From: Atractiella rhizophila
Taxonomy: Eukaryota
DNA length: 55,835 bases
Assembly (NCBI GenBank): GCA_021432655.1
Contig: MU271481.1
Location: 1-55,835 of the forward strand
Reading direction: 5' to 3'
This document shows positions 15,693 to 46,830 of this stretch, in pieces. How positions within the stretch are numbered: position 1 is the stretch's first letter; every line of letters starts with the position of its first letter. The notes under the pieces were generated by a model. It did not search any database and was not told where the DNA came from. It saw only the letters and a list, made by a program, of their open reading frames with translations. The position numbers and the translations under genes are program-made.

Positions 15693-15721
15693 AGGCTTCC
15701 AAGCGCCTATTTCTCCCAAAG

Positions 15722-15812
15722 NNNNNNNNNNNNNNNNNNNNNNNNNNNNNNNNNNNNNNNNNNNNNNNNNNNNNNNNNNNNNNNNNNNNNNNNNNNNNNN
15801 NNNNNNNNNNNN
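15722..15812. other. Assembly gap (N-run)
   Basis: Run of n. Confidence 1.
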
Positions 15813-23900: not shown

Positions 23901-24053
23901 ATAGACATTTCTCTTTGCCCTGAGACGCCGAAAGTCGCATGTATTAAGTGCCATCGACTGGACTGTTTGGGGGGTAAGTGCCTGGCGCTCTTAGTAACCT
24001 GTGTTGACACTGCTGGTGCAGGTGCAGATGGTGGCAGACATTGTCAGAATTAG
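20910..24053 (+). CDS. Fungal transcription-factor-domain-like protein with two C-terminal 8-Cys repeats
   Basis: Hand-spliced exons stay in frame from MAVESLQSS (ATG 20910) through LLEHYF...LVVLGARASPHSAILG...GSSREPFC...DIDLALQVNKQPFL to RTCRRCRKPSC and RTCRRCRKDTC; stop TAG 24051-24053; all introns GT..AG, about 50 nt. Confidence 0.7.
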
Positions 24054-24263
24054 GTTTCTTATGTATTATTCTCGTTAGGGATTGTTCAGAACTAGTCACA
24101 TTAATCGATGGATGCGTTTTGTTGTAACTTCTTGATCTCCGACCATTGTAAAGTAGTCACGCAATTATAAATCCTTTATTTCTACCAATCTAATCCAGTT
24201 AAGCATTAAGGAAGCACAAACACAGAAGCACATTGAGAAATTCAACACTAAACAAATCATTGA
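22197..24263. repeat. Tandem segmental duplication, copy 1 (~2.07 kb)
   Basis: Starts acatgcgacgtctgtctggg, ends aacaaatcattga; repeated immediately downstream. Confidence 0.97.
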
Positions 24264-26332
24264 ACATGCGACGTCTGTCTGGGCACCGAACTCATCCTGC
24301 TACAAAGCCCTCCTCCAATCTGATCCCGAGCAACATTTCCGGGACGGTCTTCCCTCTCCGTTCGGTCCAAAATGTCGAAACAAAGTCCTTCCACTTTCCC
24401 TCTACGCTTTGCGACGTACTACCCTCTTAGCCACCCTTTCCGTTCCCTCCCTCACCTTCTCCTCCCTCCTTCAACTTGTTCAAGCGCTCTTCGTTCTACA
24501 AGCTCAGCACGCAAAGTGGTTTCTCGCTCATCGAGAATATATATTCAGGAAAACCACACTTCCTCTCTCCCCAAGGTCTGCAGCAAGCCATACGCGGATG
24601 TTCATCCTGCAAGAATTGGAGAATATCGCTCTGGTTTTTGCTGCTCAGTGGATTTGCGACGAGGCAAAGAAGTTATGGGGCTGTGTGGACGAGTATCGAG
24701 ATGATTTGAATGCTATTGGACGAATAGCAGAGAAAATGACACAGGAGTCGGTTGATCGCGGGCTGATGCTTCTTCGGCGTGGATTAACTGTATTTTCACC
24801 CCTTTGTTGTGACTGAAAGTTGGACATTGATTTGGATAACTAGGTGGAGGCATTTGAAGAGCTATATGGTCCGAAAGGAATGTTTATGTGGAGAGCACAT
24901 CGCGTCTTTGAAAAATTGCCTGGAGGAGCAGAGTGGTTTTACGACTATTTCAAACGTGCTGAAGGGGAGACTGAACAAATAAAAAGGCTGAACGACATCG
25001 AATCGTAAGCTTGACATTTCTCGCTGTGAAGCGGAAGATTGACGTAATGAGATAGACTGCTCGATTTCGCCTCTCCCGCTGCTTGGTTCGGTGCCAGTTA
25101 TATCGGATGGGTGCGCTTGTTTGAGGATGTCTTGGATAGGTGCTACATGGGCTTTGATCCGACAACCGTCGAGGTAAAGTACCTTGAATTCTCCAAAACT
25201 AGTACTGATTGGCAATGAATGTCCAGGGAACGAGGCTGAAAGCCGAGTTCATCGCTAAAACTTGGTTGCCGCCTATCATTGAGCCTTCGACATGTATAAC
25301 CCCGCTGTTCGCCTCTACACGACCTATCACAGAAAATAATGGTTCAAGCAGCATCATCCATAACAGTCATGATCGGGAAAGTAAGACTCAGGAACATACC
25401 ACGCGGTCTGCACTGGATAGGGAGGAAGACGAGGACGACTTGGAGCCTTCACGAAAGCGCAGGCGAAGGACATGTCGGAGATGCAGAAAACCGAGTTGTC
25501 GAGGTCACAAAGGTTCATTCTGCTCCCAGATCGTCAATATTATTGCTTACTGTATACGAGTTCACCAGATATTGCCTTATGCCCTGAGAAACCCAGAATC
25601 CCTTGTGCACGGTGTGGCGGGCTAGAATCATGCCCAAGAGGTGTGATCGCTTTCCTTCGCGGTCTCTAGAAATAATGCTGGCATTAGGGGCGGATGAGGG
25701 TCGTGAGTGCAGTAACGCTGTTGGTGGTTCTTTGGAACCACAGACAAAACAAGCACGAATCGAGACGAAGTCGCAACCACGGTGAGCTTTTTCGTCGCCG
25801 TAACAGCTCCGGTTAAAGTTTGATTGCTCTCTGTGGAAGGAAACGAGATGTTAACGCAGAGAAGGAGCGAAGAAAGAGCCGCACGTGCCGTCGATGTAGG
25901 AAAGACACATGTAAGCTCTTCTTCACTCGCTTCGACGTAAACTTAACACGTTGAGTAGGTAAAGGGTACATAGACATTTCTCTTTGCCCTGAGACACCGA
26001 AAGTCGCCTGTATTAAGTGCCATCGACTAGACTGTTTGGGGGGTAAGTACCCGGCGTTGTCAGTAACCAATGCTGACACTGCTGGTGCAGGTGCAGATGG
26101 TGGCAGACATTGTCAGAATTAGGTTTCTCATGTATTATTCTCGTTAGGGATTGTTTAGAACTAGTCACATTAATCGATGGATGCGTTTGTTGTAACTTCT
26201 TGATCTCCGACCATTGTAAAGTAGTCACGCAATTATAAAATCCTTTATTTCTACCAATCTAATCCAGTTAAGCATTAAGGAAGCACAAACACAGAAGCAC
26301 ATTGAGAAATTCAACACTAAACAAATCATTGA
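24264..26332. repeat. Tandem segmental duplication, copy 2
   Basis: Same start and end strings as copy 1, scattered substitutions, indels only in introns/3' flank. Confidence 0.97.
24308..26122 (+). other. Duplicated 3' exons of the 20910 gene (no own start exon; reading frames intact)
   Basis: Acceptor AG at 24306-24307, exon frames open to TAG 26120-26122, Cys repeats conserved. Confidence 0.7.
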
Positions 26333-29629: not shown

Positions 29630-30720
29630 AAGAGATATTATCTACAATTGCTGAGGCTTCGAGATGATCGTCCTTCCGTTCCCACGGTCCTCTCCCGTCG
29701 TTTTCTCATTCGGCATCTTAATCGGTCTGCTTGTAATGCCGTGAACCGCTGGATGCTGGCTTGGAATCGGGAGTTGCTCGAGAAGACCTTAGCATATTTG
29801 GGGCGATATCGTCACGCAGCAACAGTGCGGTGTCCGGCTTCGCCAATCCAGAGCAAAATGAGGCAAAAGGTCATTCGCTGTGTGAGTGTCCAAGTGCGAT
29901 TCAGGATCTGCAGCGATTTCTGTGCCTTGAATGGAACCACAGACGCTCTAGACAAGGACATCTTGACAGCTTCGATGGAGCCAGTAGATTGAAGTTGGAA
30001 CCTGATTGCCACCTAATCTTCTACAACCCTCAATAGCTTCAATAGCCTTTATTCTCACTTCTATTTCCCTCACCTTCCGCCTCCTCCCGGTCTTGTCTTT
30101 ATTGCGGCGAAGCAATCGTTTCGCCGGTTCTCTTAATATGAAGCAACTTCTACCTGTAGAAGATAATGAGCCGTTGGCATGGATTCTTGTTAGTGTTTGC
30201 GGCAAGCATCGCCAACTTATCATCGAATGGACTTGCTCGCTCAGCAGGCCCGGAGTAACAGACACAGAAACACTATAAAACATCGAGCAAGTTGCGAACT
30301 TTTCCCCAACGGCCAGTAAAGATGTCTCAAACTCAAACTTCCACTAAAGAAAAGACCGACTTGATGCACGTCTTGAGCACTTGCGGAATCGGAGAGCATT
30401 ATGACAAGTAAGCGTAGCCCCTTTCTTCTCTTCGTAATGTTTGCTCATTTTGCGTCAAACCTAACCCACAGATTTGCAGCCTCCAAGTTCAATACTATGC
30501 GGTATGCTCTCCTTTCTCAGACCTTTGTAGCTGAGATATTTGATGCAAGTTCCCTGGTGGATGTGAAAGAGAAAGACTTAATTGATATCGGAATTCCAAC
30601 TGAGGCTTGCAAGGTGAGCATTGCCCTCGCACAGAATGAGAAATTGAAGTATATGCGTGAATAGAGCTTTTTGCTCCAGCTCGGGAAAAAAGAGGTCAAA
30701 GGTCAATTTCGTTATGGATC
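29630..30720 (+). pseudogene. Possible degenerate spliced gene relic
   Basis: Several good donor sites (GTGAGT ~29882, GTAAGC ~30408, GTGAGC ~30614) flanking coding-like segments, but no continuous frame could be built. Confidence 0.25.
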
Positions 30721-32259
30721 ACCTCTCTTCCTAACCATGCTGATTGCGCAATAAACAGTAAACCAGAACGCATCGATTCCGTATCCCATTACTTTTGGAA
30801 GTATGTCTTCCCTCTTTATTGCGACGCTTTGTTCACGGACCCCTATTTGCCATGTAGGATGACAGAGGTGACGAGGTGACGCGTCACGGCCGATTGAACA
30901 AATGTACTTGTACCTTGTATTCCTCAGGATTTGTATTGGAAATAGCATGTGCAATCTTACCAGTGCCTTGATCCAGATCTGGTTCGTCTGCGCCGTATTC
31001 GTGTTCACTCTGTCCTGCCCGAGCGTCATCTGTAAGCCTACTGTCACCCTTGACGATATCATCCAATCCTCGGACGGACCTTCCTTTCCTGTTCCTCTTC
31101 AGCAACTCGCCCGTCGTCACAATCTCGACGTAGTTTCGAGCGTACACGTCGGACAGTCCGATGACATCAGGAATGGGAAAAATATCGCGGCCGATGAAAG
31201 TGACCCATTGTGGTCAAAGGTCCCCTTTCACTGAAAACGCTGAAGACCAAGCGTTGCAAGCTTGCAAGCTACAAACAGTCACATTTCATTGAAAGTCATC
31301 TAGAAGGCATGCAGCTGATCAGGCTCCTTCTGTCACGTTGGACAACGCGCAATATGGTAGCAATCACCTCGCCCTCATTTATTGGGTTAGGTTCTGGGTT
31401 CTGCAATAGAAAGTTTGATGGTCGAGTTCAGAGTTCAAGGGATGATTAGATTTGCTGCGGTCTGACAAGAACCGTTACTCATGTTCTGGAATCCTCAGCC
31501 CATCGCCGTAATACCAAGCGGTTGGGCTTGCAGCCACTGATAGGCGTCAGTTAACGGAATGGATGGACTGTAAATTACAGAAAATACCGTGAGGATTCCC
31601 TTTCTTCTGGCGTGCAATCCTCCCCACCATACAGTGTGTCTTGTATGCTTGTATTGTCAAGAATCGGCAGACAGAAGGTTCTTAAACTGTCCTCAGGCTG
31701 TTGCAGGTTGTCACTGTGCCGCCTTTAGCAGAGAACTTAGCATGTCGCATTTCTTGATTGCTCCTGCCCGTGTTTCATGAAAATGACCTTGAGAAGTTGA
31801 GAAAGCTGCACGATGATTCAAGTATTGTATTTTGCGCTCACGGAGGCTTGGGTTAGCTTTATGCCTCCTTTGACTGGATGAAGACCGTCAGATCCATTAT
31901 TTGCTCCAAGCCCCGGTACGCGAAATCCGAATATTACAGTTCCCTCACCTGCTCTCACCAGTGAGCGTGCTACCCTCTTCCATACTGCTTGCGAATATAC
32001 GCAAGTGTTGGCAAGTATGGATAGACATAGACGGATATGGGAGCATCCTGCATTATCCTGCGGCTCCTGAATCGGATGCAAAGCCAAGTCTTCGCGCACG
32101 AGTTGCTTTCAAGGGACCGAGGAGGTGAGCTACAACAGAGTAGAGTAGGTAGCGGACCAATACATAATAAATGGTTATCCAGATGCAGGAAGCTTTATAT
32201 ATATCGCCTATTCATTCAGAAACCCAACAGTATAGCTATCGAAATATATATCAACCTTC

Positions 32260-33729
32260 ATGTCATCCTCAAACACGGAAGATAGCAAAAGCCTGTACGA
32301 TTATGAGTGAGTGCGACTCCCCTCAATTGTCCTTGCTATTGATTGTTCTCTAGCCCAAATGGTTCTCTTCCAGTCGTCGCAGGAGTTATCTTTGTCATTC
32401 TTTTGGCACTCCACCTCTGGCAAGCCTTCAAAGCGAAGACCTGGTTCTACATGGTGCCGCCAATTTTATACTGATCATGTTTGCATTCTAACATGGTATG
32501 GGATAGTCACCCTTCATTGTTGGCATTGTGGTTGAGGCAGTTGGCTATTTTCTACGCAAAATTTCCGTTGGAGATCAAGAGTAGGTGTTCTTCGCGTATT
32601 GCATCAACTTTCTCACATTCCGTAGTTCATTGGGTCTCTACGCCGGTCAACAATTGGCGATAGTAGTAGCACGTACGTCCTGTCATTTTCAATAACGCAG
32701 TCCTAATCTCCACGTTCCAGCTTCACTGCTCGCCGCCTCACTGTATCAGTGTTTCGGGCGGTGTGTACTTTTTGTCGGCGCCGAATACAGCCCAGTGCGC
32801 CCCACTTGGGTCACACGAATATTTGTCGCTGGAGACGTCGTATCATTTCTAGGCAAGCCATTCCACTTGTCACCGGTCTTTAGAATATTCTCACGTCTCT
32901 CTTCTAGTTCAAGCAACTGGTAAGACCCTTCCGTCCTTGTAATAAAGCTTTCCCATTAAAGAGCACCTAGGCGCCTCCCTCTTCGCTAAGGATGATCTAA
33001 CCAAAGATGAGCGCGGTATACCCTTCGTTGTACAGTAACTGGATTGTCCTAACGAGCGCTGAGCGCACAGATCGAGCAAGACTCATCCTAATCGGGGGAC
33101 TGTCGATTCAAGCCATCTTCCTTGCTGTCTTCCTCTTCCTGCCTTTCATTTACACTAGACGGTACAATAAGGCGAACTCATCTCGGACAAGCAAAGCGAT
33201 CAAAATCCTCCCCATTTTGCAACTGGTCTCAGGACTCATCTTGGTCTGCCCTACTGTTCTGCCTTTTCCCCGCAGATGGTACTCATCATGTAATAAACAG
33301 GTCCGCTGCATTTATAGGTTTGCAGAATTCGTAACTTCGAACAACGGCACTGGATACCTTTTGGAGCACGAGGTGTGGTGTAAGTTACTTCGCCTTGCTC
33401 ATTGCATGCCGAGCGAGCGACGGCTGACGAGAACTTCAAGTTTGGATTGGAGAAACGCTCCTAATTATTACCGCCTGTTCAATTTTTGGGATCTACTATC
33501 CCGCACGGCGGGTATTTCCTTGGTTTAATATATGCTCCTGAATCTGCTCTTCTGCAACAGGTGGATTCCAAACGACAAGTCATTAAGGGAAAGCACCTCT
33601 GTTCTGCCGAAACACGTCTCTCAGGATTTAGCATACACTGGCGGGCCAGCACACGAATATCAAGGATTGACAAGCCTACCTCCTTCACAAGGGTCAATGC
33701 TCAACATCCCCATGAGTTACAGCAACTGA
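32260..33729 (+). CDS. RTA1-like (lipid-translocating exporter family) 7-TM protein
   Basis: SLYDYDPNGSLPVVAG, LAASLYQCFGR, YSPVRPTWVTRIFVAGDVVSFLVQATG, LIGGLSIQ, RCIYRFAEF...GYLLEHEVW. Confidence 0.88.
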
Positions 33730-34235
33730 GTTAATGAAGCTTTCCTGATTCCTAGACGTTGTATCCTTCACGATATTGCAAACAGAATTGCCTTTCGATG
33801 GGAGATATTTCTATAGCATATTGTGGCGAGCCGGAAGACAGTAAATGGACATTTGTAATCCACTGAATTATTCCATTGTCGCATCACAGCGGAACGAAGT
33901 TGAAAGCAGCTTCCGAGTCTGCGGAAGAAGGGGTTGCAGTCTTTCACCTTGCTTTCACCTATTAATCGTGGTAGTCTCAACTAATCTTAAGAAACAGTAC
34001 TTCGCCAAAGATTGTCCAAAGTCGTCAAATGCATCAAGACCCTCATAGCATCATACACGACTTCAAATTGGCGGCTGAAAACAGGTCTAGCTTTAGACCG
34101 GACGAGAGCTTCTTCACCATCCTGGAATCCATGGCCCTTTCTCCTTTCCTTTCCCTGTTGACGTTCCGTCCCGAGAGAAAGTGACGCGCGACCAACAAGA
34201 AAACAATCAATTCCACTCTTTTGGACAAGTTGGAA

Positions 34236-34930
34236 CTACAGCTCCTCCTTTTTGGGGGCAGTCTTACCGACTATTTCAAGCAGTTCCACCTCAAAGATAA
34301 GGTCCGCGTTGGGAGGAATAGCCCCTGGCGCGCCACGAGAGCCTATTGACGACGTGGAGGAACAATCACTTGTTGTAGTAAGAAAATGGAGAGGGAATGA
34401 ACGAACCGTAGCCCATGGAGGAAGGAATTACAAGCTTCCTTTTCTCGCCAACGCACATATCCGTCAACCCCTGATCCCAGCCTTCCAAATAACTCTTTTG
34501 TGAGCGCGAGAGAGGAGGCGGGAAAGGAAAAGGACCTTTGATGACCTGTCCGACACCGAGCTATCACGGATAGAATGAATAGGAATTGTTACAACAGAAA
34601 CAAGGAGAGTGAGAAAGCTCACCCGAAACTTGAACGGTTGTCCACGGTCCAAAGAAGAATCAAATTTTGTGCCGTCAGCGGCGAGCATGCCAGTATAATG
34701 CATGGCGAGAGTATCGCCAATTTGAGACTTGAAGGGACTACATCACGCAGCGAATGTGTCCAAAGAGGTCACGAACAATGAAAACAAGGAATTATTGCTT
34801 GTCACTAACCCTTGACCGCTTTTGAAAGAAGAACATACCAGTCAGCGGGGAGGTGCTTCACGCCAATTTGCAGTTGGTCCACTGCGAGTGCCAGACCTGA
34901 AAAGAGGAGAGCAAACAAGAAGCGGATCAT
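34236..34930 (-). CDS. FPR2: FKBP-type peptidyl-prolyl isomerase, ER-lumenal (FKBP2/FPR2)
   Basis: Signal peptide [57 protein letters not shown]-terminal KEEL* retention-like signal. Confidence 0.93.
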
Positions 34931-35241
34931 TGCTGGAAGGGATGAGCGGATGAGCAAGTCTAGCAGAGGCCGAGTTGTTGAGTTGTTGAGATGGGATGTT
35001 TGTGCAGTTTCCCCGCGGTCACGGCTACGAAAGCAGAACACGTGGCAGTGGTATGATGTGAACAACTTGGAACAACCTCATATTTCCTACGTAGAATCCC
35101 GCCTTTACTATTAGTGCATTTACTGCAAATAACACAATTACACTCGTATTCATTGCAAGGGTTTGTCCGCGTGTATGTATCTATCAGCAATGAAAAGGTC
35201 CATCTACAATGCTACAGCCTGAGTGCAGGACTTCTCTACAA

Positions 35242-37030
35242 CTAGCAGTGTAACAAGAAAAATGAGAGGGCAAGTCCTGTTGCGAAGAGTCTGACGCTGT
35301 ATGTGAGGCATGAAGCAGCACCATCGTAGCCTAGTTGATATGCCGTCTGGTTTCCAAAGAATGTACGATGCCAATCTTCCACCGTTGCGTTCCCCTATCC
35401 ACCATCCAGACTTCTATAAGCTACAATCCTGAAGCAGTCCAGAGAAAGCAACATACTCCCACAATCCTGTAATCGTTTAATTGCTCTGCTGATGCGTTTC
35501 CAATCTATTTTCCAAGTGAGTTTCAACGCGCGAGAGTCAAGCAAGAAGACAATGTCGTACCTTGATATAGTTGAAAAAGCTAACGGCCGTCAAATTGGGA
35601 AACCTGTTCTTGGTTTCGACAGCAAGCAACTGCTGAGCCCAAACGGCTTTCATTTGCACCTCGCTAGCTCCACCATCGTGTGGTGTGAGGGAGGTGAGGT
35701 TTGATACCTCATCGAAAGGCACTTCTGAATCGGCTGGGTAGTGGGCAAGAGATTGAGGAATATAGTAGTGATATTGTGCTGCTGTCTCGCTGACGACGAC
35801 GGGATGAGAGGGTCCGTAGCTTTGACCAGCGAATCAGCCAAGCATGTAGAAGAAATGCATAGAACGAACCGATCGTGGAACCTTGAGAAGAGAGAAAAGA
35901 AAGTTCCATCAGGCGTGACGGTATTCAGTGTTTGCCCTTCACCCGAAGAATAGAAAGAGAGTCCGGCAATGTCCACATCTATCTCTCATTCCATCAGCTG
36001 AATGGAACATGCCGTCGAACCAGAAGGAGATACATTCGGTCCCCTGTGTTACGCAAAATGTCAGCTCTGGTGATTGGAAAAAGAGCCGGGTTTCGAACGA
36101 ACGGGATAATAAGCCTCATAACCCCTTAGCTGCCCAACATCTGTTGCATCTGCACTTCCATAGATGTTCGGAGACCACAGCATGAACGTGCTGTTTGTAG
36201 ATGCGTGGACTGCAGACGCTAGATCTCGAAAGGCAGTTATGAAAGGCTCGGGTTGCAAGCCGTACGCCATCCATTCTCCATTCTAGTTTCTCATCATTCT
36301 AAATACGAAGAGAGAAGAGAAGATACATACCATCTCGTACGCAAATCTGTTTAATGTTAAAGCAGTTCAGTACCAGGAAGATGAGACAAACCGTAGCCAA
36401 ACAGTGATATTACGTCGGTTGAAGTTCCTGCACTTCTCAACAAGCGCATCTCGCATCGCGCCAGTCCATCCGTCCCCCTCTAAACTGCGGCTAGGAATGA
36501 TGGCAGGTGCATAGACAGTACCTTCTGGCAATTCGGACAGCCCGTACGAGTGCCAGTCCATTTGCCCTAGAGAAGTGTCCTACAATCCAGCGTCGAGCTT
36601 GAGTATTGGAGTAAGTATATCGGATTTAGAGATGACGAACAGAAGGAGAAATGGACACGTAGTCGCCGACGATGGCGATGGGAGCGCCTAGACGCTGATT
36701 GATGTCGCGAGGCGATTCATTGGTCCAATCCGGCAGAGCACTTGTGGGAAGATAAGCGTCAGCTCAGCGTAACCGGATAGGATGACATTAAATCACCCTA
36801 CGTAGATTCCACTCTTCGAGATCTTGTCGCTAGTCAGTCCAAGATCAGAAGGACGTTCACGTTGGGAGATCCCAACGGTACTGAACAAAAATCAAAGATG
36901 ATTCAAATAATCATTAAAGAGGAAAGCTCACAGTAGACTTGTAAGGAGCGTGAAGTGAGACCGCGGCAACATAACAAACCAGAAGGCAAAACGAGCTGGG
37001 GGATTCCAAATCAGTCTTCAAATGCTTCAT
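35242..37030 (-). CDS. Glycoside hydrolase family 26-like protein, secreted/probably GPI-anchored
   Basis: VWLRFAYEMNGEW (acid/base Glu), MLWSPN, YEAYYP, VDIAGLSFY, PVVVSET (nucleophile Glu), RFPNLTAVSFFNYIK; ends YDGAAS + hydrophobic tail. Confidence 0.8.
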
Positions 37031-37747
37031 CGGCTGATTTACACCAGCTCACATTGACGTCTTGCCAGGGTCTTGCTATTTCTTGAGCTTAAGCGCGAGC
37101 GATAAGGCCGGCGAAAACGTTCCACGGCTGTGTCATGGTGGCAAAGATCATTGTGAGATTACGATTGTGACGGTCAAGATGCTTGGGCGAAATTCGAAGA
37201 GAAACTGTAACTTCTGAAGTGAACCTCTATGCTGGATTCCCATGATACTGGCAGGCCTGGGCTGAGAGACTTGTACCTGTAACAAAAGGACTCGGGGCAA
37301 GTCATGGCAGGAATTACAGAAAGTCAAAAAGCAAAGCACTTTGCTGATCACCAGATCATCCCGCAGACTTGTTGATTGACTGAAAAGATTTACATGGATC
37401 AGTCTGACTTTCTTGAGCAGGGTAGTAGTTCTCAGGTCAACCAGAGTCAGTAGTCTACTAGTATCGAGTTGGTTCGCTTTACTCTCCTAGGGCTTAGATA
37501 GCAAAGCGATGAGCGGATGAAAATGACAGGGTGCATTGGATTGTCCAACTAAATGAATAGCTTCTCTCCCTCCCAATCCATCGCCGATAGATCGTGCAAT
37601 AACAACAAAAAAAGGAACCAGTCCACCCATGAATGATCGAACGAAGAAACGCCAGGTCTCTCTCCTCCACTCAGCTCAGCCGAATAAAGTAGGTTTCGAG
37701 TGCCAGCCGCTCCAGTCGGATCATCCACAAAGAACATGATGAGGGGA

Positions 37748-38379
37748 CTAAACGTCCCCAACCTTTCCACGTCTATCTTCTCCCTTTCTTTCCCCTCGTT
37801 GTTGAGCCTTGACAAAAGCGTATACGGCGAAGAGGTAGAAGAGGGAAGCGTCTACCGTTTGGTAGACGAGGATGGCCCAGAACGAACACCAGAAGTAAAA
37901 GATCGATTTGAAGACGTGAGAACGGTTGAGGGCCGAGTTTTCGAGGAATGGGACGGAATATTCCAGTGCGAGAGTGAACAGACCGTTCAGCTAGTGACAT
38001 CATATCAGATTGTGACTTGGAATCATACGTGAAAAGGTAGTGCGAACCAGATTGAAGATTTGGAAAAGGGGAAAGTCTACGGTTAGTTTGACGAAAATAT
38101 CTGAGCTGGAAGGTGGACTATCCATACAATTCAAGTCAGTTTCGTGTCGACCTCAAGAGGAGCGCGAAAAACGAACATCAACCCCACAGGTCCGAGCACA
38201 CCACCAATCATATCCCAAAAGAACTTTCGGTAAAAGAATGCCCAAAACGCTCCCCAAACGACGTCTTGGCCATGTCATCAATTTCGCCTCCTTTCCTAAA
38301 GGAAACACAGGAAAGACTCACAAGTACCGCTGGTCAAAGCGACCAAGCGACCCCAATCTTGATACATCAATTTTCCCAT
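37748..38379 (-). CDS. NoxD/PRO41-like small membrane protein (fungal p22phox-like NADPH oxidase partner)
   Basis: Four hand-spliced exons: MGKLMYQDWGRLVALTSGT / YVVWGAFWAFFYRKFFWDMIGG / FQIFNL / LNGLFTLALEYSVPFLENSALNRSHVF...VYQTVDASLFY...GDV*; fits the PRO41 pattern MGKL..W.RL..T, K.FWD, LALE, RS..F, YQ. Confidence 0.75.
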
Positions 38380-39214
38380 TCTTTAGTTCTTCTGAATCCT
38401 TGCTGACTGACTAATTAACCTATCGACCGAGCGATTTCTTGTGCGGAAAAGGATACGAGGCGTCGAAGGAAGCACTTCGTTCGAATTCGTAGGGTTGTTG
38501 GATTTTGCAGTCTAGTTTCGTGCCACTCAGTGGCAAAGTCCTTTAGTTTTCTGGAATGTTCTACTATTTTCTAGTTGCCACTGCTGTAAGCTATATAAAC
38601 ACATAGAATTCCATTTCCTGGTGCTCATGCGTTTGCAAGAGCTCAGCCAAACGTAAAAGTCGTACTTAGCTCCGCTCCTCAGCCCGTCGATTTCCAACAA
38701 GGGTAGGTAGGTGAGTCGAAAGAGAAGTTGTGAGAAAAGACTGAATGAAAGAGGATCAATCCTTCTCCCTTGTCCCTAGTCTCGCCAAGGACAGAAAAGT
38801 GAACTGAAGAAACGAGAGTGGCGCAGCCTAGAAGCGTAAGTGGGAAAGGGAAGAAGGATACTGTCGACCTTTACGCTCTTGGGAACGAGAACTTCGTCGT
38901 TTGGGTGGAACGATGCTTAAAGTTCGACCTGGTTCGACCGTCCCAACTCAATGGAAATTATGACTTTCACGTGGCTGGACATGTGGCCGCTTACCTACCG
39001 TTGCCTGGGGACTGGTTGAAAAAAGTTGTTGCTGGTGCATTGGTCCAGGCGCTATTGGGCGTGAAGCAGTCCTGTCAAGCCAACGCGTACTTGCGATTTG
39101 CGTGATAAGAGCTCTCACAAATCAAAGTAACCCCTCAACACAACAGAAGGACTGACAACACTGGACAACATGAATTGCAATGAACACATTATAATGTAAC
39201 AGTGTTACTAAGTG

Positions 39215-41264
39215 CTAAGGTGGCTCAAAGCGAACTCGGTGCCTTCTGCTCCTTCCAAGCGGACGGTTTCCCAGCTGAGAACCAAGCAGGTCCAAAAGAA
39301 GCTTCAGTAATAATAAAGGCATTTTCAGGGATCCTGAACACGGGTGGATCGAAAGAGCTCTCTGTCGTCGCGTGCGATTGTGATTGCAAATCCTCGTCCG
39401 TTCCAAGATAGGAGGAACAAGAGGACATCAACTTGCGCGGTTGACCAATTTCTAAGTCATCATCCATAGCAGAGGAACCGCTCGCCTTCCTGGAGTGTGT
39501 TTCTCGACGATCGGAAGAAGAAGAAAGGCCAAGGAAGCTGCCATCATCGAGCCCTCGTTGGAAGTTCAGAATCAATCCAGGCTGTCAGAAAGATTTCAAC
39601 GTGTACCGATGTTCGTGAGAAGGTACTTACAGTTCCAAACGCTATGAAGGTCCAGCTGGACGCGCCATCAGCGGATCTCACGATGAAAGACAGAAAACTC
39701 ACAAATACCAAAGGTGGATGATTGCGACGTTGGTGTCATCGGACGCTTTCGCTCCCAGCACCAGGGTGAACACTGTACCCCCGAGGCTGGCAGGTTCATT
39801 AGAGATGTCAGTTGACGCAAGACGAATGAAAGGAACATACTAGCTTAAAGAAGACCCAAAAAGACCGAAGGCTGTAAACAGATGAGCTAATGCCTGTACG
39901 GTGGGAAATGGTTGACAAACCGTGAACTTTAAGGTTGAACAGAGCCCGGCGCAAAGCACTGACTTTTAGTTCGGTGTCCTCTTCCAGAGAGGTCTGTGGA
40001 TTACCAATCTGGGCTAGTCGCCTGAGCTAATAACACGAGTAAGCTGATGTTACTTGAAGGGTGACAGCAGAATCTAGCTGGAACACTCACATCGTTAAGA
40101 ACTCGCTCAAAGATGTTAATATGACTCTTGAGCTTCCGGACCATGACGAAGAAGGCGTAACTGCCCAGCTGGACATACGTTGTGTGTTCAGTAAAAAGCT
40201 TTCGGAAATGGGATGAGACGAACGCACACAGAATACCCCAAAGACCAACCAGGCCCCCCATAAAGCGACTGTTACCCGGTCAACCTCGAGGCACTTCCGA
40301 TCCAGCTCCGTCAATTCTTTGAGTGGTACAACTAACTGCAACAGGTCGTGTTGATCGTCGACAACGGTGGTGTTCTGAAATAAGAGTAGGCTCTCCATCA
40401 CTCGTCCGTAGGCTCCGAAACTACGGTTGCAAACGATATTTGACCATATATGAGTTCCAACGGTTGTGGCAGAATATAACAGAGGAACCACAACGGCAAA
40501 GAGTACGCTGAGAATGCGAAGTCGCCCGCTTGAGTGAAGCGAAGATGGATCCAGTTGCATTGCTTGCGTATTGATAGATGCTGCTGTGACGATCCCATAT
40601 GCTGCCTTATTATGAGCATATTTTTTCAAGTCGAAGGGAAAAAGTAACCTTTGTAATACCCTGCCAACCAGACGGTCAACCTTACGACCCGTCAGTCATG
40701 CTTTCAATTGTGGAGAAGGAAACCTACCATGAGAACATTCGAAAAAGAATCAAGTTCATAGAAGCATCCTTTCCATTCAAGATCTCGCTTATCCGCCACA
40801 CACTCAGCTCATTGCCTTGACAATTAGTCAGTCAGGCACTCTCAGCCAAGAAGCACGTACTGGTGAGGTATGCCAAAAGGAGAGAACTGAAGATCACGGG
40901 AGTGTTGATAACAATGCAACGATCTGTAAAAGCAACTTCAAGCACAAACTGCCTAGTCCATGGAGAAACGTACCTCGGATCGAAAAGAGAAAGAAATTCT
41001 TATTTCTCAAACGAATGGCAATGCAGGCAATGGAGATCAACCCCAGGACTGCGTTCAAAGCTGTCCAAGGAGATTAGGCAGAAATACCTAGGAAGAAGCA
41101 GACGCACCAAGAATGGAATAAAACTGAGGCAGCGCACTCCTTGGAAAGCTGGGGAATAAAAATTGATCCACCAACGCTGAGATTGTTTTGGATAGGTCCG
41201 AGACTGAACCTTCCCTCAAAGCAATCTGGATTATTCCTGCAAGCTGGCTGGCAAGGTCTCCCAT
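39215..41264 (-). CDS. Hypothetical multi-pass membrane protein (3' end approximate)
   Basis: ATG 41264 (MGDLASQLAG...), several hydrophobic exons (e.g. ILSVLFAVVVPLLYS, VTVALWGAWLVFGVFC), short introns, Ser/acidic tail 39225-39575. Confidence 0.55.
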
Positions 41265-42073
41265 AGCTAGGAATAAAGGTGCGATCTCTGGAACTAGGCT
41301 ACCTCTGTGGAAACTAGAGCACCATCAAACATCCAGGTATTGGCACTCCGAGATAAGTAAGCAGGAGCTGCCATGTCCATGGGGTGGACTGATATATCGA
41401 CGGGAACTGTCGAAGCTCGGTGGAACTTCTTGATGAAAAATTTTACCTCCGTCTGCAGATTGTTAGTTTAAGACATTGGTCTGGATCACAAGAATAGCAA
41501 ATATGTTAAAATCCCAAAGACATATAGTTTCTAGGACGAGGTTGAATCATGGACGTGGAAACGTCGAAGAAGCCCGTCAAACTTCGCAGGGATCGGGAAG
41601 TCCATTGGTATCATGGTTACATGGCGCACGTAGAAATTCGGTTCGGTCCCATTAAAGGCAAGTTGGCACACGATTGGAACAAACACAACTGAACAGCTGA
41701 AGTAATGAGCTGAGTTGAATAAGGTCAGCCCTTAAATTGCAAAAGCACGTAGGCTCTAAAAAATTAATAATAAAGCAAGGCGAACTCGCCGGCTTCACCG
41801 CTTAACGGTCTCCTGGTGTCCCGGGCAACAGAAACAGATTCGCCAAAAAGATTCACCATCAAAGGATGCATGAGCCAGCATGATCACTTTCATTACCATG
41901 ACACACAAAGCACTGATGCAAGTGAGATAAAATATTGCGCCGCCAAATTCGGGAGATGTACGAGCCAACACATGTCAGGTGCGATCGCAAAGGATTCCAA
42001 ATCCTGAAGTACTCCAGACAAGACGGCGGACACGGGGGTTCGATTGGGCTGGTAACCTACGGGAGAGCGGGCG

Positions 42074-45064
42074 CTAGCCATCACCATAATACTTCCTGCG
42101 CAGCTCCTCCACCGTCAGATTGGCATCTTCTTCCAATTCACGCATCTCCTCTTCACTATCTTCGTTCGCTCCGTCCTCTTCCCCTTCCATTTCAGCTTCC
42201 ATCTGTTCATCGTCCTGGGCTCTGTCGTCATCCTCCTCATCTTCAAACTCCGAATTGCGTTCCCGATCGTTCTCGACATCAGCGTGAATCTGGTGGTCAT
42301 GTTCCTCCTCCAGCTCAGCATCGTCTTCAGATTCAATAGCAGTGGGGGCGGCGACGTCGGCAGGAGGAAGGAGTGAAGATGCGTTTTGTGAAACGTGCTG
42401 GCTCATGCTCGGAGTAAGGGCCGCGGTTGCCAGTGAGGAAAGATCAGGAACAATTGGACCTTGACTGGTGATGCTAAAGGCTTCTGAAATCTGCGCCAGT
42501 TCGCCCGCTTCCTCCCTCATCATCGCTTCCATGTCTATTTCGTTGTCCTCACGAGCACTCTGTTCATCCACCCCATTCGGTTCAAAAGCTTCGGAGGATG
42601 GAGTCGTGGGGTTGTTGTTGTCATGGTGGTCTTCCGAATTTTCCTCCTCTTCGGGATCATCACTCACTGCTCCTTCTTCGTATTCCTCTTCCTCCTCTTC
42701 TTCTTCCTCTTCTTCGTCTTCACTAGTCCCCCTTCCTCTTCCTCCAAGAAGCTCTCGGCTCTGCTCCAAGAGGCGATCGAGTTGTTTCTTACCCTCCTTC
42801 TCCCTCTCAATCCTCTCCGCTTCCTCCTTCCTTGCCATGACGAGCTCGTAAGCCTCCCTCCACTTCTTCTTGATCTCTTTTGCAATCCATCTCGCATTTG
42901 CCTTCCTCTCTTTCTCTTCCGCTTCCTCCGCCTCCTTCTCACGAGTCTCTTTGTTGGCCCAATACTCCTTCACTATCTTCCCGAGTGGACCCTTCTTCTC
43001 CCTCCCATGAACGCGTGCCTTCCCTTCATATCCTAAGCCCCATAATTTCGCCAAGCTAGTTGCATGAAGGACGAGTGCGTCCCGATGATCTTCCTTCCGC
43101 TTATGCTCCACGTTTTTCTTGAGACTAGGGTCCATTTCCACTCCATCCCCGAACTCCTCCAAATGCTTGACCTTCGCCCAAATCTCCATTTCCTTCTCCA
43201 ACTTCTTCCCTTCTCTGTAGCTAGAGCATGGATCTCCTTCCACCGGTACAAGATCCACAATTTCGTCCACGATCTCTGCCAACTCCTTCCCCTCATATGG
43301 CGCAAACCATTCCTCTAGAAAGATTTGATACGGTTGCATGTACTGAGGCATAAGGTCTGAGGATTCCTTGAGCCGTTTCTTGGGAGGCGGAAGATTAGGG
43401 AGGAACACTGTATACTGTTCCACCGGCTCAGGCGGCGGCGGTAAGCGTCGACGGGAGTTGACTGGGGGAGGAGAAGGCGAAGGAGGAATGGGAGGAAGAT
43501 TGAGGCCAGCGATTTCTGAATCCGTAATCCTAGAAAAAGGTGATGTCGCTCGCTTCTTTTTCTTCTTTTTCGTCGAAGTTTTTGAGGTCGCGGTCTTGGG
43601 TTGCTCCGTTAGTGAAGGCAAGTCTACCGCCATTGTTTCCTCATCCTCACCATCCTCATTGACCTTTGACTTTTTCTTGGGTCGCTGCGAAACGACCTTC
43701 TCCTTTGCTTGAGCCTTTGCTCTCCTTCCCCCTTGTTCGATGTTCACCGTGCCACCGCTCCCAATATCAGATCCTAGGAGATGCTGCAGTTCTCTCTCGA
43801 ATCCGGACCTTCTGATCTTCTTTGGCTTCTGCGCTGGCATTGGCACAGACGCTTCTGCAAGTGAAACCTCAGGGTCGGGTATGGAAAGATTTGACGGACC
43901 GGGGGGTAACGTTGCGGTTGTTGTAACGGTTCGAGGGACGATATCAGGCCCAAGCAGAGATTGCAGCTCCCTCTCGAAGCCAGAGCGACGCGACTTCTTC
44001 TTCGGTGGCGGTTGGGGACGGAGTGTGGATTCGAACAAGGTGGAGCCGCTAGCGCCGTTGCTCGTCGTTGACTCCAGAGAGAGGGAAGGCAGTGCTCCAG
44101 TGGAACTAGAGTTGATGGGAAGACTGCTGGTGGACGCCTCCGCTTCCACGGAAGGAGAAGGCACGGTAGGAGGACGAGTGAGCTTGAGCGTAATCTTCCT
44201 TCTCTTCTCAGGTTGCGGCGAGTCCGCAGGAGTAGGCGTTGACCCGGTGGGCGTAGGCGCAATGTGTTCAAGCTTCCTTTTGTCCCCTACTTGAGGCGGC
44301 GGAGGTTTAAATCGAATTTTGCCCTTCGAAGCCTTTCTCACAACAGCAACGGCGCGCGAGCTCTCGACTTCTTCGTCCAGAGCGGTTGCAAGCGCTTCTG
44401 CGGGCAAAGAAGCTTCTGCTTCCATTGGTGCTGGTGGTGAAGCCTGAACAGTTTTCGTTCGCTGTTTATCTGGAGTACCACTGATTACTTGTGTGCGCTC
44501 TGCTATGCTACGCCGCGTCTTTCGTACACCGGTGTTGGATGGATCGGATGCTTTGGCAAGAAGGTCGTACTGGCTTGCGAACTGGTGAATGGGAATTAAT
44601 GCAATGTTCTCGAGCACGGAAGAAAGTGTTGGCAAAACAGGTAGTGAGAGGCAAGCTTACCTCGGAGAAAACGTGTGACGAGTCCTTCTTCGCTTCCTGC
44701 ACCTTAGTTAGCACCAAGCAGCTCAGTCAAAGAGGGTGAAGGAGACAAACAGCTGGGTCATAATTGACCAATGTCTTATATTTCTCAAGGTGAAAGAGCT
44801 CCCTCACTAATTCATCATGTGTTTCCTTAATCCTTCAGAATACACCCAAGAAGAACACGAATCACCCTCCCAGTCCCATTTCTAGACGCGAGATACTCAC
44901 AAGTCTGCGTCCAACTGTGTTTTTGCAATCTCCTCTTCACGCCCTTGCAGAATTTCTTCGCGTGTTGGCTCAATGTGTGGAGGCACTGAATCTGTAGCCG
45001 TAGCGACCGCCTTTTGGAGCGTTTCTTCATCTGAAGATGCTGAAGAGAGGTCTGAGGAAGACAT
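42074..45064 (-). CDS. SWR1 N-terminal region (HSA domain plus acidic tract) with no ATPase domain
   Basis: Spliced 5' exons give HDELVRELFHLEKYKTLVNYDP..AKKDSSHVF; HSA-like EYW...ARWIAKEIKKKW...EGKKQLDRLLEQSRELL; ends MRELEEDANLTVEELRRKYYGDG* at 42074. Confidence 0.8.
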
Positions 45065-46093
45065 CGCGGTACTGGCGCGGAAGTCGCGTGTGGATCGGCT
45101 CCGTGTTCTGCAAACAGAAACGACGAACGGGATGGAAGCAAGTTTTGAGGTGCCTTGCTAGGACAGCAGTAGGATGTTAGAGATGACGGTTGTTGCTATG
45201 TTAATATTATATAGCCGTTTGTCTTGATGTGAGCTCGTTATTGGTCGTGATGGTGGGGATTGTCTGCTTTGCTTGTTTGCCCTATCTTATCGGATATCCC
45301 CAAGGAATGAACTTGCGAAGGAACTGTTTACTGGACATGTAGTCGATAGACGACCATAAGTTTCAGAACTTCACAAATACTAGAATCGGGATATTGGCTA
45401 TAAAAGACCAGCATTGTCCCGCTGACATTCTTGAGAAAAAATAATGGAGAAGGCGACTGGTGGAATGTATCTTCCATATACTTCCACGACCATTGTCGAA
45501 AACAGACAAATTTCCGTTCTCCTTAATTTGTGTTATGCTTTGTATACATCTTCCCCGTCTCAAGACACTCTTCAAAACTCTGTCGTCGCCTTTCTACTTC
45601 GCAAAGCTTTGTTAACGGAAGGTTCTGTGTGCTGAACTGCCAGCGCCGCTGAGCTATATTTACGTCGTTCATTCCTTGATGTCTTATTGCTATCATTTCT
45701 CCTTACAACATTCTCCCAGCTTGTGGCCACACTGGCCACACCGTCTTTTAGGTCACGTGTAGTGAGTTCTCTTCCTTGTCCGTGCGCCAAGACACTTTCC
45801 TTTTATTCCGTCTCTCGGGTGTTTCGCTACAGTCTTATTGCATCTTTTTCCTCCTGCTATGTAAATCGAACAGTTTCTTTAGTTTCTGGACGGGTTACCA
45901 CTATGCTTCTTCAGATTGTCCTGTCTTGAAATAGAGCTTCGTCCTGACAAGATCTTGTCCATATAATCCATATACCTCCTCCCCAGCTCCCTCGAACTTC
46001 TCAGCGCGCTTGGCTCTCTTTGTGGTGAGCCCTTATAAGGCTCTATAGTAATCATTTGTCACTCTTCTTCCTCTTCCGTTGATCCCACCAAAC

Positions 46094-46830
46094 ATGCATG
46101 ATTTCCGCTCTGTCTTTCTCTTCCTAGTCTGCGTACTCGCTACTTCTGCGACAACCGAGACCGTCAGTCTGGTTCGGAGGCAAGAACGTGAACCTGAAGA
46201 TCCAGAGACGAGCGAAGAGCCAAAGAGTACGAACTCAGCCAAATTCGACGAACAAAATCTAATTGCGAGCTGTACTTTTTCTCCTTTCCTGTCTTCTCCG
46301 TTCCCTATTTACATCATCAGGAGTATATGCTCATCCAAGGATGAACAGTATCTTATTTCGGCGCACTCGTTGGCTTAGGCGCCCTGTACCTCTTTGTCAA
46401 CTATATTAGGCGAAAACAGGATGAAAGGCGAGCGGCACAGGATTGGAAAGCCGGGAAAATTGGAACGAGGCTTAAAGAAAAGATCCTCTCCTCCAACAAT
46501 GTAAATGTGCGGGGATTGGAGGAAGGAGAGGGGATGAAGAAGGAGTCGCCTTATCCGCCGAGTCCACCGTTTGGTGCGAGAGGAAACGAGAGGGGAAATG
46601 GCTCAGTCGGTCCCTTCATAGCTTGTTGTGGAAATCTGATGCGAAGGGAGTGCGTAGGGAAGGCAGGTTACAATGGTGCCGGAAGAGAGCGCAGATTCTT
46701 CTTCCAAGTGACTCCGAAAGTTCCTTTTGGTTTGCCACATTTTCCATCTTTGCCATCGATCACCGTGTTAGGTTTGCTAGTCGTAACCGCTTTTTCAAGG
46801 TGCTACTCACCATCATCTAAAACGATCTAG
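46094..46830 (+). CDS. Small single-pass (type I) membrane protein, hypothetical
   Basis: Signal peptide MHDFRSVFLFLVCVLATSA; after an intron, TM LSYFGALVGLGALYLFVNYI followed by RRK; end uncertain. Confidence 0.55.

What the first reader, a model, noticed from the sequence alone, without database searches (positions are those of the whole stretch)
42074..45064. SWR1 gene that ends before its SNF2 ATPase: possible split chromatin remodeller or free HSA scaffold
Seen: a ~930-aa spliced ORF with a 2.5-kb uninterrupted exon, carrying what I recognise as the basidiomycete SWR1 N-terminal motif (HDELVRELFHLE...YDP), an HSA-like helix and the acidic 'LEEDANLTVEELRRKY' segment, then TAG. The next same-strand gene starts only ~800 nt downstream, and no helicase motifs (LRxYQ, ILADEMGLGKT, DEAH) are visible in between. 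Known: in SWR1/SRCAP/p400 this segment directly precedes the ATPase, HSA binds actin/Arp4, and Eaf1 has HSA plus a SANT domain (no SANT is evident here). Inference: SWR1 fission into two genes, or a stand-alone HSA paralog that could partition actin-Arp modules between SWR1-C and NuA4.
Basis: partly seen in the sequence, partly recalled or inferred. Interest (0 to 1): 0.72.

Follow-up and report, generated by a model that had tools for sequence, protein, structure and literature searches.

The report
SWR1 front half as stand-alone gene
A root fungus carries a gene for only the front, partner-binding half of the chromatin remodeller SWR1, and the motor half lies nowhere on this piece of DNA, so the enzyme may be made from two genes.

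Summary
The window is a whole 55,835-bp scaffold of Atractiella rhizophila. On the minus strand, 45064-42074 is a four-exon gene. Its 929-aa product equals NCBI model KAH8919001.1, a "hypothetical protein".

What the protein has:
- the SWR1-specific N-terminal motif;
- an HSA/post-HSA helix whose best solved relative is yeast Swr1 residues 349-462;
- the conserved acidic block ...LTVEELRRKY, followed by YGDG and TAG.

Evidence that it ends before the motor:
- Relatives continue for about 60-120 more residues into the SNF2 ATPase.
- tblastn with eight full-length SWR1 proteins finds no ATPase anywhere on the scaffold.
- The next same-strand gene is a separate spliced gene for a membrane-like protein.
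- A second copy on another scaffold is 95% identical and ends at the same residues. Its differences cluster in the linker (2/287, 20/130 and 0/70 substitutions).

It is not Eaf1. Whether an ATPase-only gene or a second full SWR1 exists elsewhere could not be tested, because no whole genome is held. Two protein searches showed no Atractiella ATPase row but were rank-limited.

The scan earlier noted a similarly truncated Tra1 in this genome. Verdict: real truncated gene, probable fission, moderately interesting.

The parts
44901..45064 (-). Exon 1 with the start codon (ATG at 45064-45062); acidic/serine-rich N-terminus
   Evidence: Exon mapping of P0037 onto the window; sequence
44751..44832 (-). 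Exon 2: SWR1-specific N-terminal motif (HDELVRELFHLEKYKTLVNYDPA)
   Evidence: tblastn matches of 6 of 8 full-length SWR1 queries at 44834-44649; alignment
44661..44696 (-). Exon 3 (36 nt)
42074..44581 (-). Exon 4, 2,508 nt including the TAG stop at 42076-42074. It holds the basic/proline-rich region, the HSA and post-HSA helix, a poly-Glu run, the variable acidic linker and the conserved C-terminal acidic block.
42737..43099 (-). HSA plus post-HSA region. Predicted as a long helix with a break at a KKGP insertion.
   Evidence: tblastn of all 8 full-length SWR1 queries falls within 43267-42737. Alignment. Best PDB match is yeast Swr1 349-462. AlphaFold2 model: helices 55-84 and 88-179 of the 181-residue segment 43249-42707, mean pLDDT 79.8.
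42077..42286 (-). Last 70 residues: acidic block ending ...EEMRELEEDANLTVEELRRKYYGDG. Identical in both copies; conserved block of fungal SWR1 proteins.
   Evidence: 0 of 70 residues differ between P0037 and P0001; alignments
41598..42073 (-). Spacer between the stop codon and the upper end of the next same-strand transcript. Presumed 3' UTR plus the neighbour's promoter. No recognisable SWR1 remnant.
   Evidence: Sequence; tblastn negative; RNA contig end at 41597
38889..41597 (-). Neighbouring spliced gene, not part of SWR1. About 530-550 aa, hydrophobic and membrane-like, with no family match.
   Evidence: 2,234-nt spliced contig of run X3; approximate model with ATG at 41264; 0 Pfam families for 11 open-frame pieces

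Best explanation
[quoted passage not shown] In yeast that half is the platform for the N-module (actin, Arp4, Swc4, Yaf9, Bdf1, Swc7). A rearrangement or deletion cut the ancestral SWR1 gene a few codons after the conserved acidic block (...EELRRKY), inside the disordered acidic linker that precedes the ATPase. I infer that the ATPase half, with its Rvb1/2- and C-module-binding insert, is encoded by another gene elsewhere in the genome. I also infer that the two halves work as a two-piece SWR1 held together non-covalently by the contacts that cross-linking found in yeast (HSA/Arp4 to Rvb1; N-module to C-module). Shown here: the gene structure, the stop, the absence of an ATPase on the scaffold, homology to SWR1 N-halves, and a second copy with the same end and uneven conservation. 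Inferred: the existence of the ATPase gene, the assembly of the two pieces, and the function.
For: (1) The gene model equals NCBI protein P0037 and ends at TAG 42076-42074.
(2) phmmer against 1.84 billion representatives gave 36 hits. Of 25 scanned with Pfam, 21 have HSA, 20 have an SNF2 domain, and 13 are full HSA+SNF2+Helicase_C proteins. Named ones are SWR1 of Sporobolomyces, Tilletia, Saitoella, Tulasnella, Tortispora, Malassezia, Neolecta, Tremellales and Blastocladiella.
(3) In the alignment the end of the protein lines up with ...EELLK(K/R)YGYG of the relatives, which then run on into PPFLLRGTLRPYQ...ILADEMGLGKT.
(4) No ATPase similarity on the scaffold. The next same-strand gene is a different spliced gene. 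A simple in-place nonsense mutation with a decaying ATPase behind it is therefore excluded.
(5) The second copy, P0001, on a 47,661-bp scaffold ends at the same ...YYGDG. All 4 indels keep the frame. Substitutions are 2 in 287, 20 in 130 and 0 in 70 residues (Fisher p 1.5e-10). This fits constraint on the HSA region and the C-terminal block.
(6) Contigs of run X3 lie on the gene, for example 787 nt at 43440-44226 with 1 differing letter. X3 carries intron-skipping joints with CT..AC ends and a poly-T loose end, so it holds RNA.
(7) None of the 22 phmmer hits whose clusters were looked up is a second Atractiella protein with a SWR1 N-half.
(8) In yeast the N-terminal half recruits its module independently, and the modules contact each other and Rvb1 (PMC3776929, passages read). 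An 'NTD alone' construct keeps its subunits (PMC5499540, passages read).
Against: The ATPase half was not found. No whole genome is held. No Atractiella row appeared among the best 120 of 7,014 short (30-962 aa) or the best 120 of 7,657 mid-length (444-1416 aa) SWR1-ATPase relatives. The second list was cut at 842 bits, about where an Atractiella protein would be expected to score, and proteins over 1,416 aa were not searched with an ATPase query.

Pfam's HSA model does not recognise the HSA stretch. That stretch has two small insertions with Gly/Pro, and the model breaks the helix there with low confidence. The Arp-binding helix may therefore be altered.

I did not see this gene's own introns spliced or its 3' end in RNA, because the tables were cut. 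The uneven conservation rests on protein differences only; no synonymous rate was available.

Yeast Swr1 N-terminal truncations lose histone exchange (PMC5499540), so a covalent link may matter.
Confidence: 0.5

Rival explanations
1. Truncated paralogue: an intact full-length SWR1 exists elsewhere in the genome. This gene would then be a partial duplicate that kept only the N-half. It could be a free HSA scaffold, a regulator or decoy for the N-module subunits, or a copy on its way to decay.
For: The HSA stretch is unusual: no Pfam hit, and two Gly/Pro-containing insertions. That would fit relaxed or changed constraint after duplication. ATPase queries did not cover proteins longer than 1,416 aa.
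Against: The phmmer search with this protein reached SWR1 N-halves as distant as Blastocladiella and Saitoella. No second Atractiella protein appeared among the 22 of 36 hits whose clusters were looked up; the 14 not looked up are all under 800 aa. The HSA region and the C-terminal block are nearly invariant between the two copies, so it is not decaying.
Confidence: 0.2
2. Relic after loss: the ATPase half was lost from the genome. The N-half survives because it has a role of its own, for example holding the actin-Arp4-Swc4-Yaf9 module for NuA4 or another complex.
For: No Atractiella SWR1-type ATPase row in either protein search. The N-half is conserved between the copies.
Against: SWR1-type ATPases were found across all fungal groups returned, so loss would be exceptional. 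Both searches were rank-limited and covered annotated proteins only.
Confidence: 0.1
3. Assembly artefact: the scaffold is wrongly joined at about 42074 and the real gene continues into ATPase exons on another scaffold.
For: The assembly is a draft with runs of N and, apparently, separate scaffolds for two near-identical copies. No listed contig of the DNA run X1 was shown bridging 41941-42100 (tables cut).
Against: The join would have to fall within a few bases of the stop, since YGDG still matches the relatives' YGYG, and it would have to do so in both copies. X1 has depth in 30 of 30 bins, and none of the loose ends listed is near 42074; 27 further loose-end rows were not shown.
Confidence: 0.08
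4. It is the NuA4 platform protein Eaf1/Vid21, not a SWR1 fragment.
For: It has an HSA region and no ATPase.
Against: No SANT or Myb family. It carries the N-terminal motif and the C-terminal acidic block shared with SWR1 proteins. 20 of 25 scanned relatives have an SNF2 domain. The best solved relative is yeast Swr1.
Confidence: 0.02

Closest known systems
Swr1 of Saccharomyces cerevisiae (catalytic subunit of SWR1-C), N-terminal half
   Same: HSA/post-HSA homology to residues 349-462. Position upstream of the ATPase. In yeast this half is the docking platform for Bdf1-Arp4-Act1-Swc4-Yaf9-Swc7, and it can hold its subunits as an 'NTD alone' construct (PMC3776929 and PMC5499540, passages read).
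   Different: In yeast it is one polypeptide with the ATPase; here the gene stops before the ATPase. Two small insertions lie in the HSA helix, and Pfam HSA gives no hit.
Full-length SWR1 of other Pucciniomycotina, e.g. Sporobolomyces pararoseus GAA5961619.1 (P0004, 1,752 aa)
   Same: N-terminal motif (58.6% identity over 29 residues), the HSA region and the acidic ...IEELMKKYGYG block, in the same order.
   Different: P0004 continues for about 900 residues with SNF2-rel_dom 920-1217 and Helicase_C 1467-1579. The Atractiella protein ends 4 residues after the block.
Eaf1/Vid21 (NuA4 platform) and the p400 fusion of Eaf1-like and Swr1-like parts
   Same: An HSA-bearing scaffold without its own motor, as Eaf1 is. 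p400 shows that these modules have been rearranged in evolution (recalled knowledge; PMC4358907 seen as abstract only).
   Different: No SANT domain. The flanking motifs are SWR1-type. This would be a separation, the opposite of the p400 fusion.
ATPase-only or N-half-only SWR1 gene models in other fungal annotations (e.g. Tulasnella calospora, 838 aa; Sporobolomyces johnsonii, 809 aa)
   Same: Database proteins that contain only one half of SWR1.
   Different: I could not inspect their loci. Relatives of those two have full-length models: Tulasnella sp. 418 (1,587 aa) and S. pararoseus (1,752 aa). Many of these may therefore be split annotations of one gene. In Atractiella the other half is not within 42 kb downstream or 10 kb upstream.

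Membership tests
SWR1/SRCAP-type catalytic subunit (Swr1 branch of the INO80-like SNF2 ATPases) | SNF2 ATPase: SNF2-related N lobe and Helicase_C lobe separated by a long insert | tested here: not met
   0 Pfam families in the 860-aa frame and in the 929-aa protein. No tblastn match to ATPase residues of 8 full-length SWR1 proteins anywhere in the window.
SWR1/SRCAP-type catalytic subunit (Swr1 branch of the INO80-like SNF2 ATPases) | HSA/post-HSA region upstream of the ATPase (binds actin and Arp4) | tested here: met
   Homology: phmmer to yeast Swr1 349-462, E 2e-6. Alignment with the Pfam-HSA stretches of the relatives. Predicted long helix. Caveat: the Pfam HSA model does not hit, and the helix is interrupted at an insertion. 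Binding was not tested.
SWR1/SRCAP-type catalytic subunit (Swr1 branch of the INO80-like SNF2 ATPases) | Fungal SWR1 N-terminal motif (HD..VRELFHLE...YDP...D.S.VF) and the pre-ATPase acidic block (...EELL..YGY) | tested here: met
   tblastn and alignments. These features are my own reading of the alignment, not a curated family definition.
SWR1/SRCAP-type catalytic subunit (Swr1 branch of the INO80-like SNF2 ATPases) | ATP-driven H2A.Z-H2B exchange within a complex | not testable with these tools
   Needs biochemistry or genetics.
Eaf1/Vid21 (NuA4 scaffold) | HSA followed by a SANT domain; no SWR1-type flanks | tested here: not met
   No SANT or Myb hit. SWR1-type N-terminal and C-terminal blocks are present. 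The relatives are SWR1 proteins.
Split gene (fission of SWR1 into two genes) | Both halves present as separate, expressed genes in the same genome | tested here: inconclusive
   N-half: present, and covered by contigs of an RNA-bearing run. ATPase half: not searchable in the genome and not seen in two rank-limited protein searches.

The most novel reading that the evidence does not exclude
Atractiella runs SWR1 as a two-gene enzyme. Its freed N-half is a mobile actin-Arp4-Swc4-Yaf9 platform that can dock on the ATPase half and also serve NuA4. That would be a natural reversal of the p400 fusion. Together with the truncated Tra1 noted earlier in the same genome (unchecked here), it would point to a lineage in which the giant shared scaffolds of NuA4/SWR1 have been cut into pieces.
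Probability: 0.12. Interest if true: 0.8.

Novelty: new variant of a known kind. Interest (0 to 1): 0.5.

Why it matters
SWR1 deposits histone H2A.Z at promoters. In every characterised case one polypeptide joins the subunit-recruiting N-half to the motor. A fungus that encodes the N-half alone would show whether the covalent link is needed, and would give a natural system for studying the N-module on its own.

It would also bear on how NuA4 and SWR1, which share four subunits, have been fused and separated in evolution. If an intact SWR1 turns out to exist elsewhere, the gene is instead a rare conserved HSA-only paralogue. If neither, the fungus would lack a near-universal enzyme.

Practically, the NCBI record calls it a hypothetical protein, and it can now be named.

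Tried and rejected
1. Whole-genome search for PF00176 and PF07529: no genome is held for this window.

2. First protein search, near lengths: it returned only the second Atractiella copy, because low-complexity words filled the 8,000 candidates.

3. ATPase hunt with Sporobolomyces queries: no Atractiella row in either list of 120.
   - One unnamed NCBI row (P0182, 1,345 aa, 66.6-kb contig) looked promising, but it is 85% identical to Kalmanozyma SWR1, so it is from the Ustilaginales.
   - P0002, the best foreign hit (35% identity), looked like an HSA-only protein. It contains LRPPFLLRGSLRPYQ... and then runs into an intron, so it is an ordinary SWR1 cut by open-frame calling.

4. Earlier notes of this scan searched by an ATPase sequence and by look-alike stretches: nothing.

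5. Metagenome scan with the protein: 373 pattern matches, none confirmed.

6. Idea that the C-terminal block is the H2A.Z-H2B-binding Swr1-Z/SRCAP-Z element. It lies in a similar place, and SRCAP-Z uses V551, L554 and L555 (preprint 10.64898/2025.12.30.697126, passages read).
   - The single sequence gave no PDB hit at E<=10.
   - A 9-sequence profile gave only 4 chance hits and no Swr1 or SRCAP chain.
   - The idea is not supported.

7. ESM Atlas: no usable feature hit; all structure rows have TM under 0.3.

8. Read laying:
   - The tables were cut: 34 joints, 27 loose ends and 555 pieces were not shown. I therefore could not see the gene's own splice joints, a poly(A) end near 42074, or a DNA contig bridging 41941-42100.
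   - Lower X3 depth in the bin 41571-42121, and a bin without X3 cover at 31653-32203, are not used as evidence.

9. A splice that skips the TAG: the three GT sites in the last 45 nt (GTGGAG, GTATTA, GTGATG) lack the G at position 5 that all three real introns of this gene have. The only nearby acceptor would give a 28-nt intron. The frame after the TAG closes again after 32 codons without any SWR1-like sequence. All this is read from the sequence.

10. Complex prediction was not used: no Atractiella partner sequences were at hand.
Full report
**What is there**

The window is an entire 55,835-bp scaffold of the basidiomycete Atractiella rhizophila (Pucciniomycotina). An exact look-up shows that the 929-aa NCBI protein KAH8919001.1 ("hypothetical protein BT69DRAFT_1353475", P0037) lies on a contig of exactly this length. 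Mapping it back gives a minus-strand gene with four exons: 45064-44901, 44832-44751, 44696-44661 and 44581-42074. The three introns are 68, 54 and 79 nt long and all are GT..AG.

The last exon is 2,508 nt. It is part of an 860-codon open frame, which cannot be chance. The gene ends ...AAG TAT TAT GGT GAT GGC TAG, with TAG at 42076-42074.

**What it is related to**

Pfam finds nothing in the protein: 0 families at E<=1 for the long frame and 0 at E<=0.1 for the whole protein. A phmmer search of 1.84 billion representative proteins gave 36 hits at E<=0.001. I scanned 25 of them against Pfam:
- 21 have an HSA domain.
- 20 have an SNF2-related domain.
- 13 are complete HSA + SNF2 + Helicase_C proteins of 1,386-1,834 aa.

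Cluster look-ups of 22 hits name SWR1 proteins of Sporobolomyces, Tilletia, Saitoella, Tulasnella, Tortispora, Malassezia, Neolecta, a Tremellales species and Blastocladiella.

An alignment of the N-terminal parts shows three shared blocks in the same order:
- the N-terminal motif HDELVRELFHLEKY.TLV.YDP...D.S.VF;
- the HSA/post-HSA stretch;
- an acidic block, ...EEMRELEEDANLTVEELRRKY, matching ...DDAEMPIEELMKKYGYG in Sporobolomyces.

The best solved relative of the HSA stretch is yeast Swr1, residues 349-462 (E 2e-6). Relative to yeast and the other fungi, the Atractiella HSA has two short insertions containing Gly and Pro. This probably explains the Pfam miss. An AlphaFold2 model of residues 470-650 of the frame was built from a 21-sequence alignment and has mean pLDDT 79.8. 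It gives helices 55-84 and 88-179 with a three-residue break at the KKGP insertion and low confidence around it.

There is no SANT domain, so this is not Eaf1.

**Where it stops**

In the relatives, the acidic block is followed by roughly 60-120 residues of acidic linker. Then comes PPFLLRGTLRPYQ...NGILADEMGLGKT, the start of the ATPase. The Atractiella protein ends four residues after the block.

tblastn of eight full-length SWR1 proteins against the whole window at E<=1 hits only the three blocks above, plus a few chance matches with E>=0.08. Nothing aligns to ATPase residues. The sequence after the TAG has no SWR1-like reading, and the frame closes again after 32 codons.

This is not a nonsense mutation in front of a decaying ATPase. 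The ATPase-coding DNA is simply not here.

**Surroundings**

Four public runs were laid on 30000-46500.
- Run X1 behaves as DNA. It has depth in 30 of 30 bins and no intron-type joints.
- Run X3 carries many joints that skip 50-123 nt with CT..AC ends, which are minus-strand GT..AG introns. It also has a poly-T loose end at 37510, so it holds RNA.

A 2,234-nt spliced X3 contig runs from 38889 up to 41597. The stretch 34-41.6 kb has no long open frame because it is packed with short introns, not because it is junk. My approximate model of that neighbour starts at ATG 41264 and encodes a hydrophobic protein of about 530-550 aa. It has no Pfam match in 11 open-frame pieces. It is unrelated to SNF2.

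X3 contigs also lie on the SWR1-like gene, for example 787 nt at 43440-44226 with one differing letter. Two further runs show short pieces there. Because the tables were cut, I did not see this gene's own splice joints, its 3' end, or a DNA contig across 41941-42100. Expression is likely, but the mRNA end is not shown.

**A second copy**

The same assembly holds a 492-aa partial model, P0001 (KAH8917885.1), on a 47,661-bp scaffold. It is 95% identical over residues 443-929 and ends with the same ...EELRRKYYGDG. It may be the other haplotype or a recent duplicate.

The differences are 22 substitutions and 4 indels, all of which keep the frame. They are very unevenly spread (Fisher p 1.5e-10):
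- 2 in the 287 residues that include the HSA region;
- 20 in the 130-residue linker;
- 0 in the last 70 residues.

This argues against an assembly misjoin, which would have to fall at the same codon twice. It also argues against a decaying pseudogene. It rests on protein differences only, because I had no DNA of the second copy for a synonymous rate.

**Where is the motor?**

This is the open point. No whole genome is held for the window. I searched the 5.8-billion-protein collection, which contains the NCBI Atractiella proteins, with SWR1 ATPase queries from the same subphylum.
- Among proteins of 30-962 aa, 7,014 passed E<=1e-50. The best 120 (684 bits or more) include no Atractiella row.
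- Among proteins of 444-1,416 aa, 7,657 passed. The best 120 (842 bits or more) again include none.

The first result makes a near-complete annotated ATPase-only protein under 963 aa unlikely. The second list is cut about where such a protein would score. Longer proteins were not searched with an ATPase query.

Conversely, a second Atractiella protein with a SWR1-type N-half did not appear among the 22 phmmer hits I could name. The 14 I could not look up are all shorter than 800 aa.

Many fungi have ATPase-only SWR1 database models. Relatives of two of them have full-length proteins, so many of these are probably split annotations of one locus. That explanation fails here, because no ATPase lies within 42 kb downstream or 10 kb upstream.

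**How it most likely works**

In yeast the N-terminal half of Swr1 recruits Bdf1-Arp4-Act1-Swc4-Yaf9-Swc7, while the ATPase insert recruits Rvb1/2 and the Swc2-Swc3-Arp6-Swc6 module. The modules assemble independently. Cross-links connect the HSA domain and Arp4 to Rvb1, and the N-module to the C-module (PMC3776929, passages read). An N-terminal domain alone keeps its subunits, whereas N-terminal truncations keep nucleosome binding and ATPase activity but lose histone exchange (PMC5499540, passages read).

The break in Atractiella lies in the disordered linker between these two halves. My best reading (about 0.5) is a gene fission: the 929-aa protein is the N-module platform, and it joins a separately encoded ATPase half through the inter-module contacts.

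The rivals are:
- a conserved truncated paralogue beside an intact SWR1 (0.2);
- a surviving N-half after loss of the motor (0.1);
- an assembly error (0.08);
- Eaf1 (0.02).

**Literature and earlier notes**

- A full-text search for SWR1, "HSA domain", split and "separate polypeptide" found 28 papers with at least 3 of the 4 terms. None of the 12 listed describes a naturally split SWR1 in its title or abstract.
- A search for "Atractiella rhizophila" plus genome found 12 papers. None of the 10 listed concerns chromatin proteins.
- These two searches are the only basis for saying it is undescribed.
I did not check it. It either hints at a lineage habit of cutting giant chromatin scaffolds or warns about the assembly.

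**Verdict**

It is a new variant of a known kind, with interest 0.5. One genome-wide search would settle it.

Noticed in passing
window 38491-38699: A 209-bp piece is skipped by one DNA contig of run X1 and by contigs of X3, X4 and X7 (joint 38490>38700, ends AG..CA). The bin around it reaches depth 10,454 in X1 against about 250 elsewhere. It looks like a short multi-copy element inserted in this copy only. It sits inside the most strongly covered transcript of the stretch (X3 depth up to about 30,000 at 37.2-38.8 kb).
   Followed up: no
window 22197-26105: Tandem duplication with a period of about 2,067-2,069 bp. Three 300-nt probes repeat at 100%, 99% and 94% identity, duplicating at least two open frames (22093-22749 / 24157-24816 and 23141-23557 / 25209-25625).
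   Followed up: partly
window 34000-41600, minus strand: Genes here are cut by very many short introns (50-123 nt, every 100-300 nt), so no long open frame is visible. By contrast the SWR1-like gene has one 2,508-nt exon, with all three of its introns in the first 0.5 kb.
   Followed up: partly
window 35978-36102 and 36283-36387: RNA contigs replace these stretches with 9-10 other letters (ends CT..AA and TA..GA). These are not ordinary introns; they may be allelic indels or unusual junctions.
   Followed up: no
window about 13331-13990 and about 15720-15810: Runs of N (scaffold gaps) inside or next to open frames.
   Followed up: no
other pieces of the same genome (earlier notes e1-7571898, e1-7574028): Earlier notes of this scan report a Tra1 gene that ends at the HEAT/FAT boundary and a multi-copy SNF2-like ATPase gene known only from Atractiella. 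Either could bear on how this genome treats giant chromatin genes.
   Followed up: no
proteins P0047, P0053, P0083 and others: Many fungal annotations hold ATPase-only SWR1 models of about 720-960 aa on large contigs (Sporobolomyces johnsonii, Tulasnella calospora, Serpula lacrymans, Schizophyllum commune, Clavulina). They are probably models split at the acidic linker, but their loci were not inspected.
   Followed up: no
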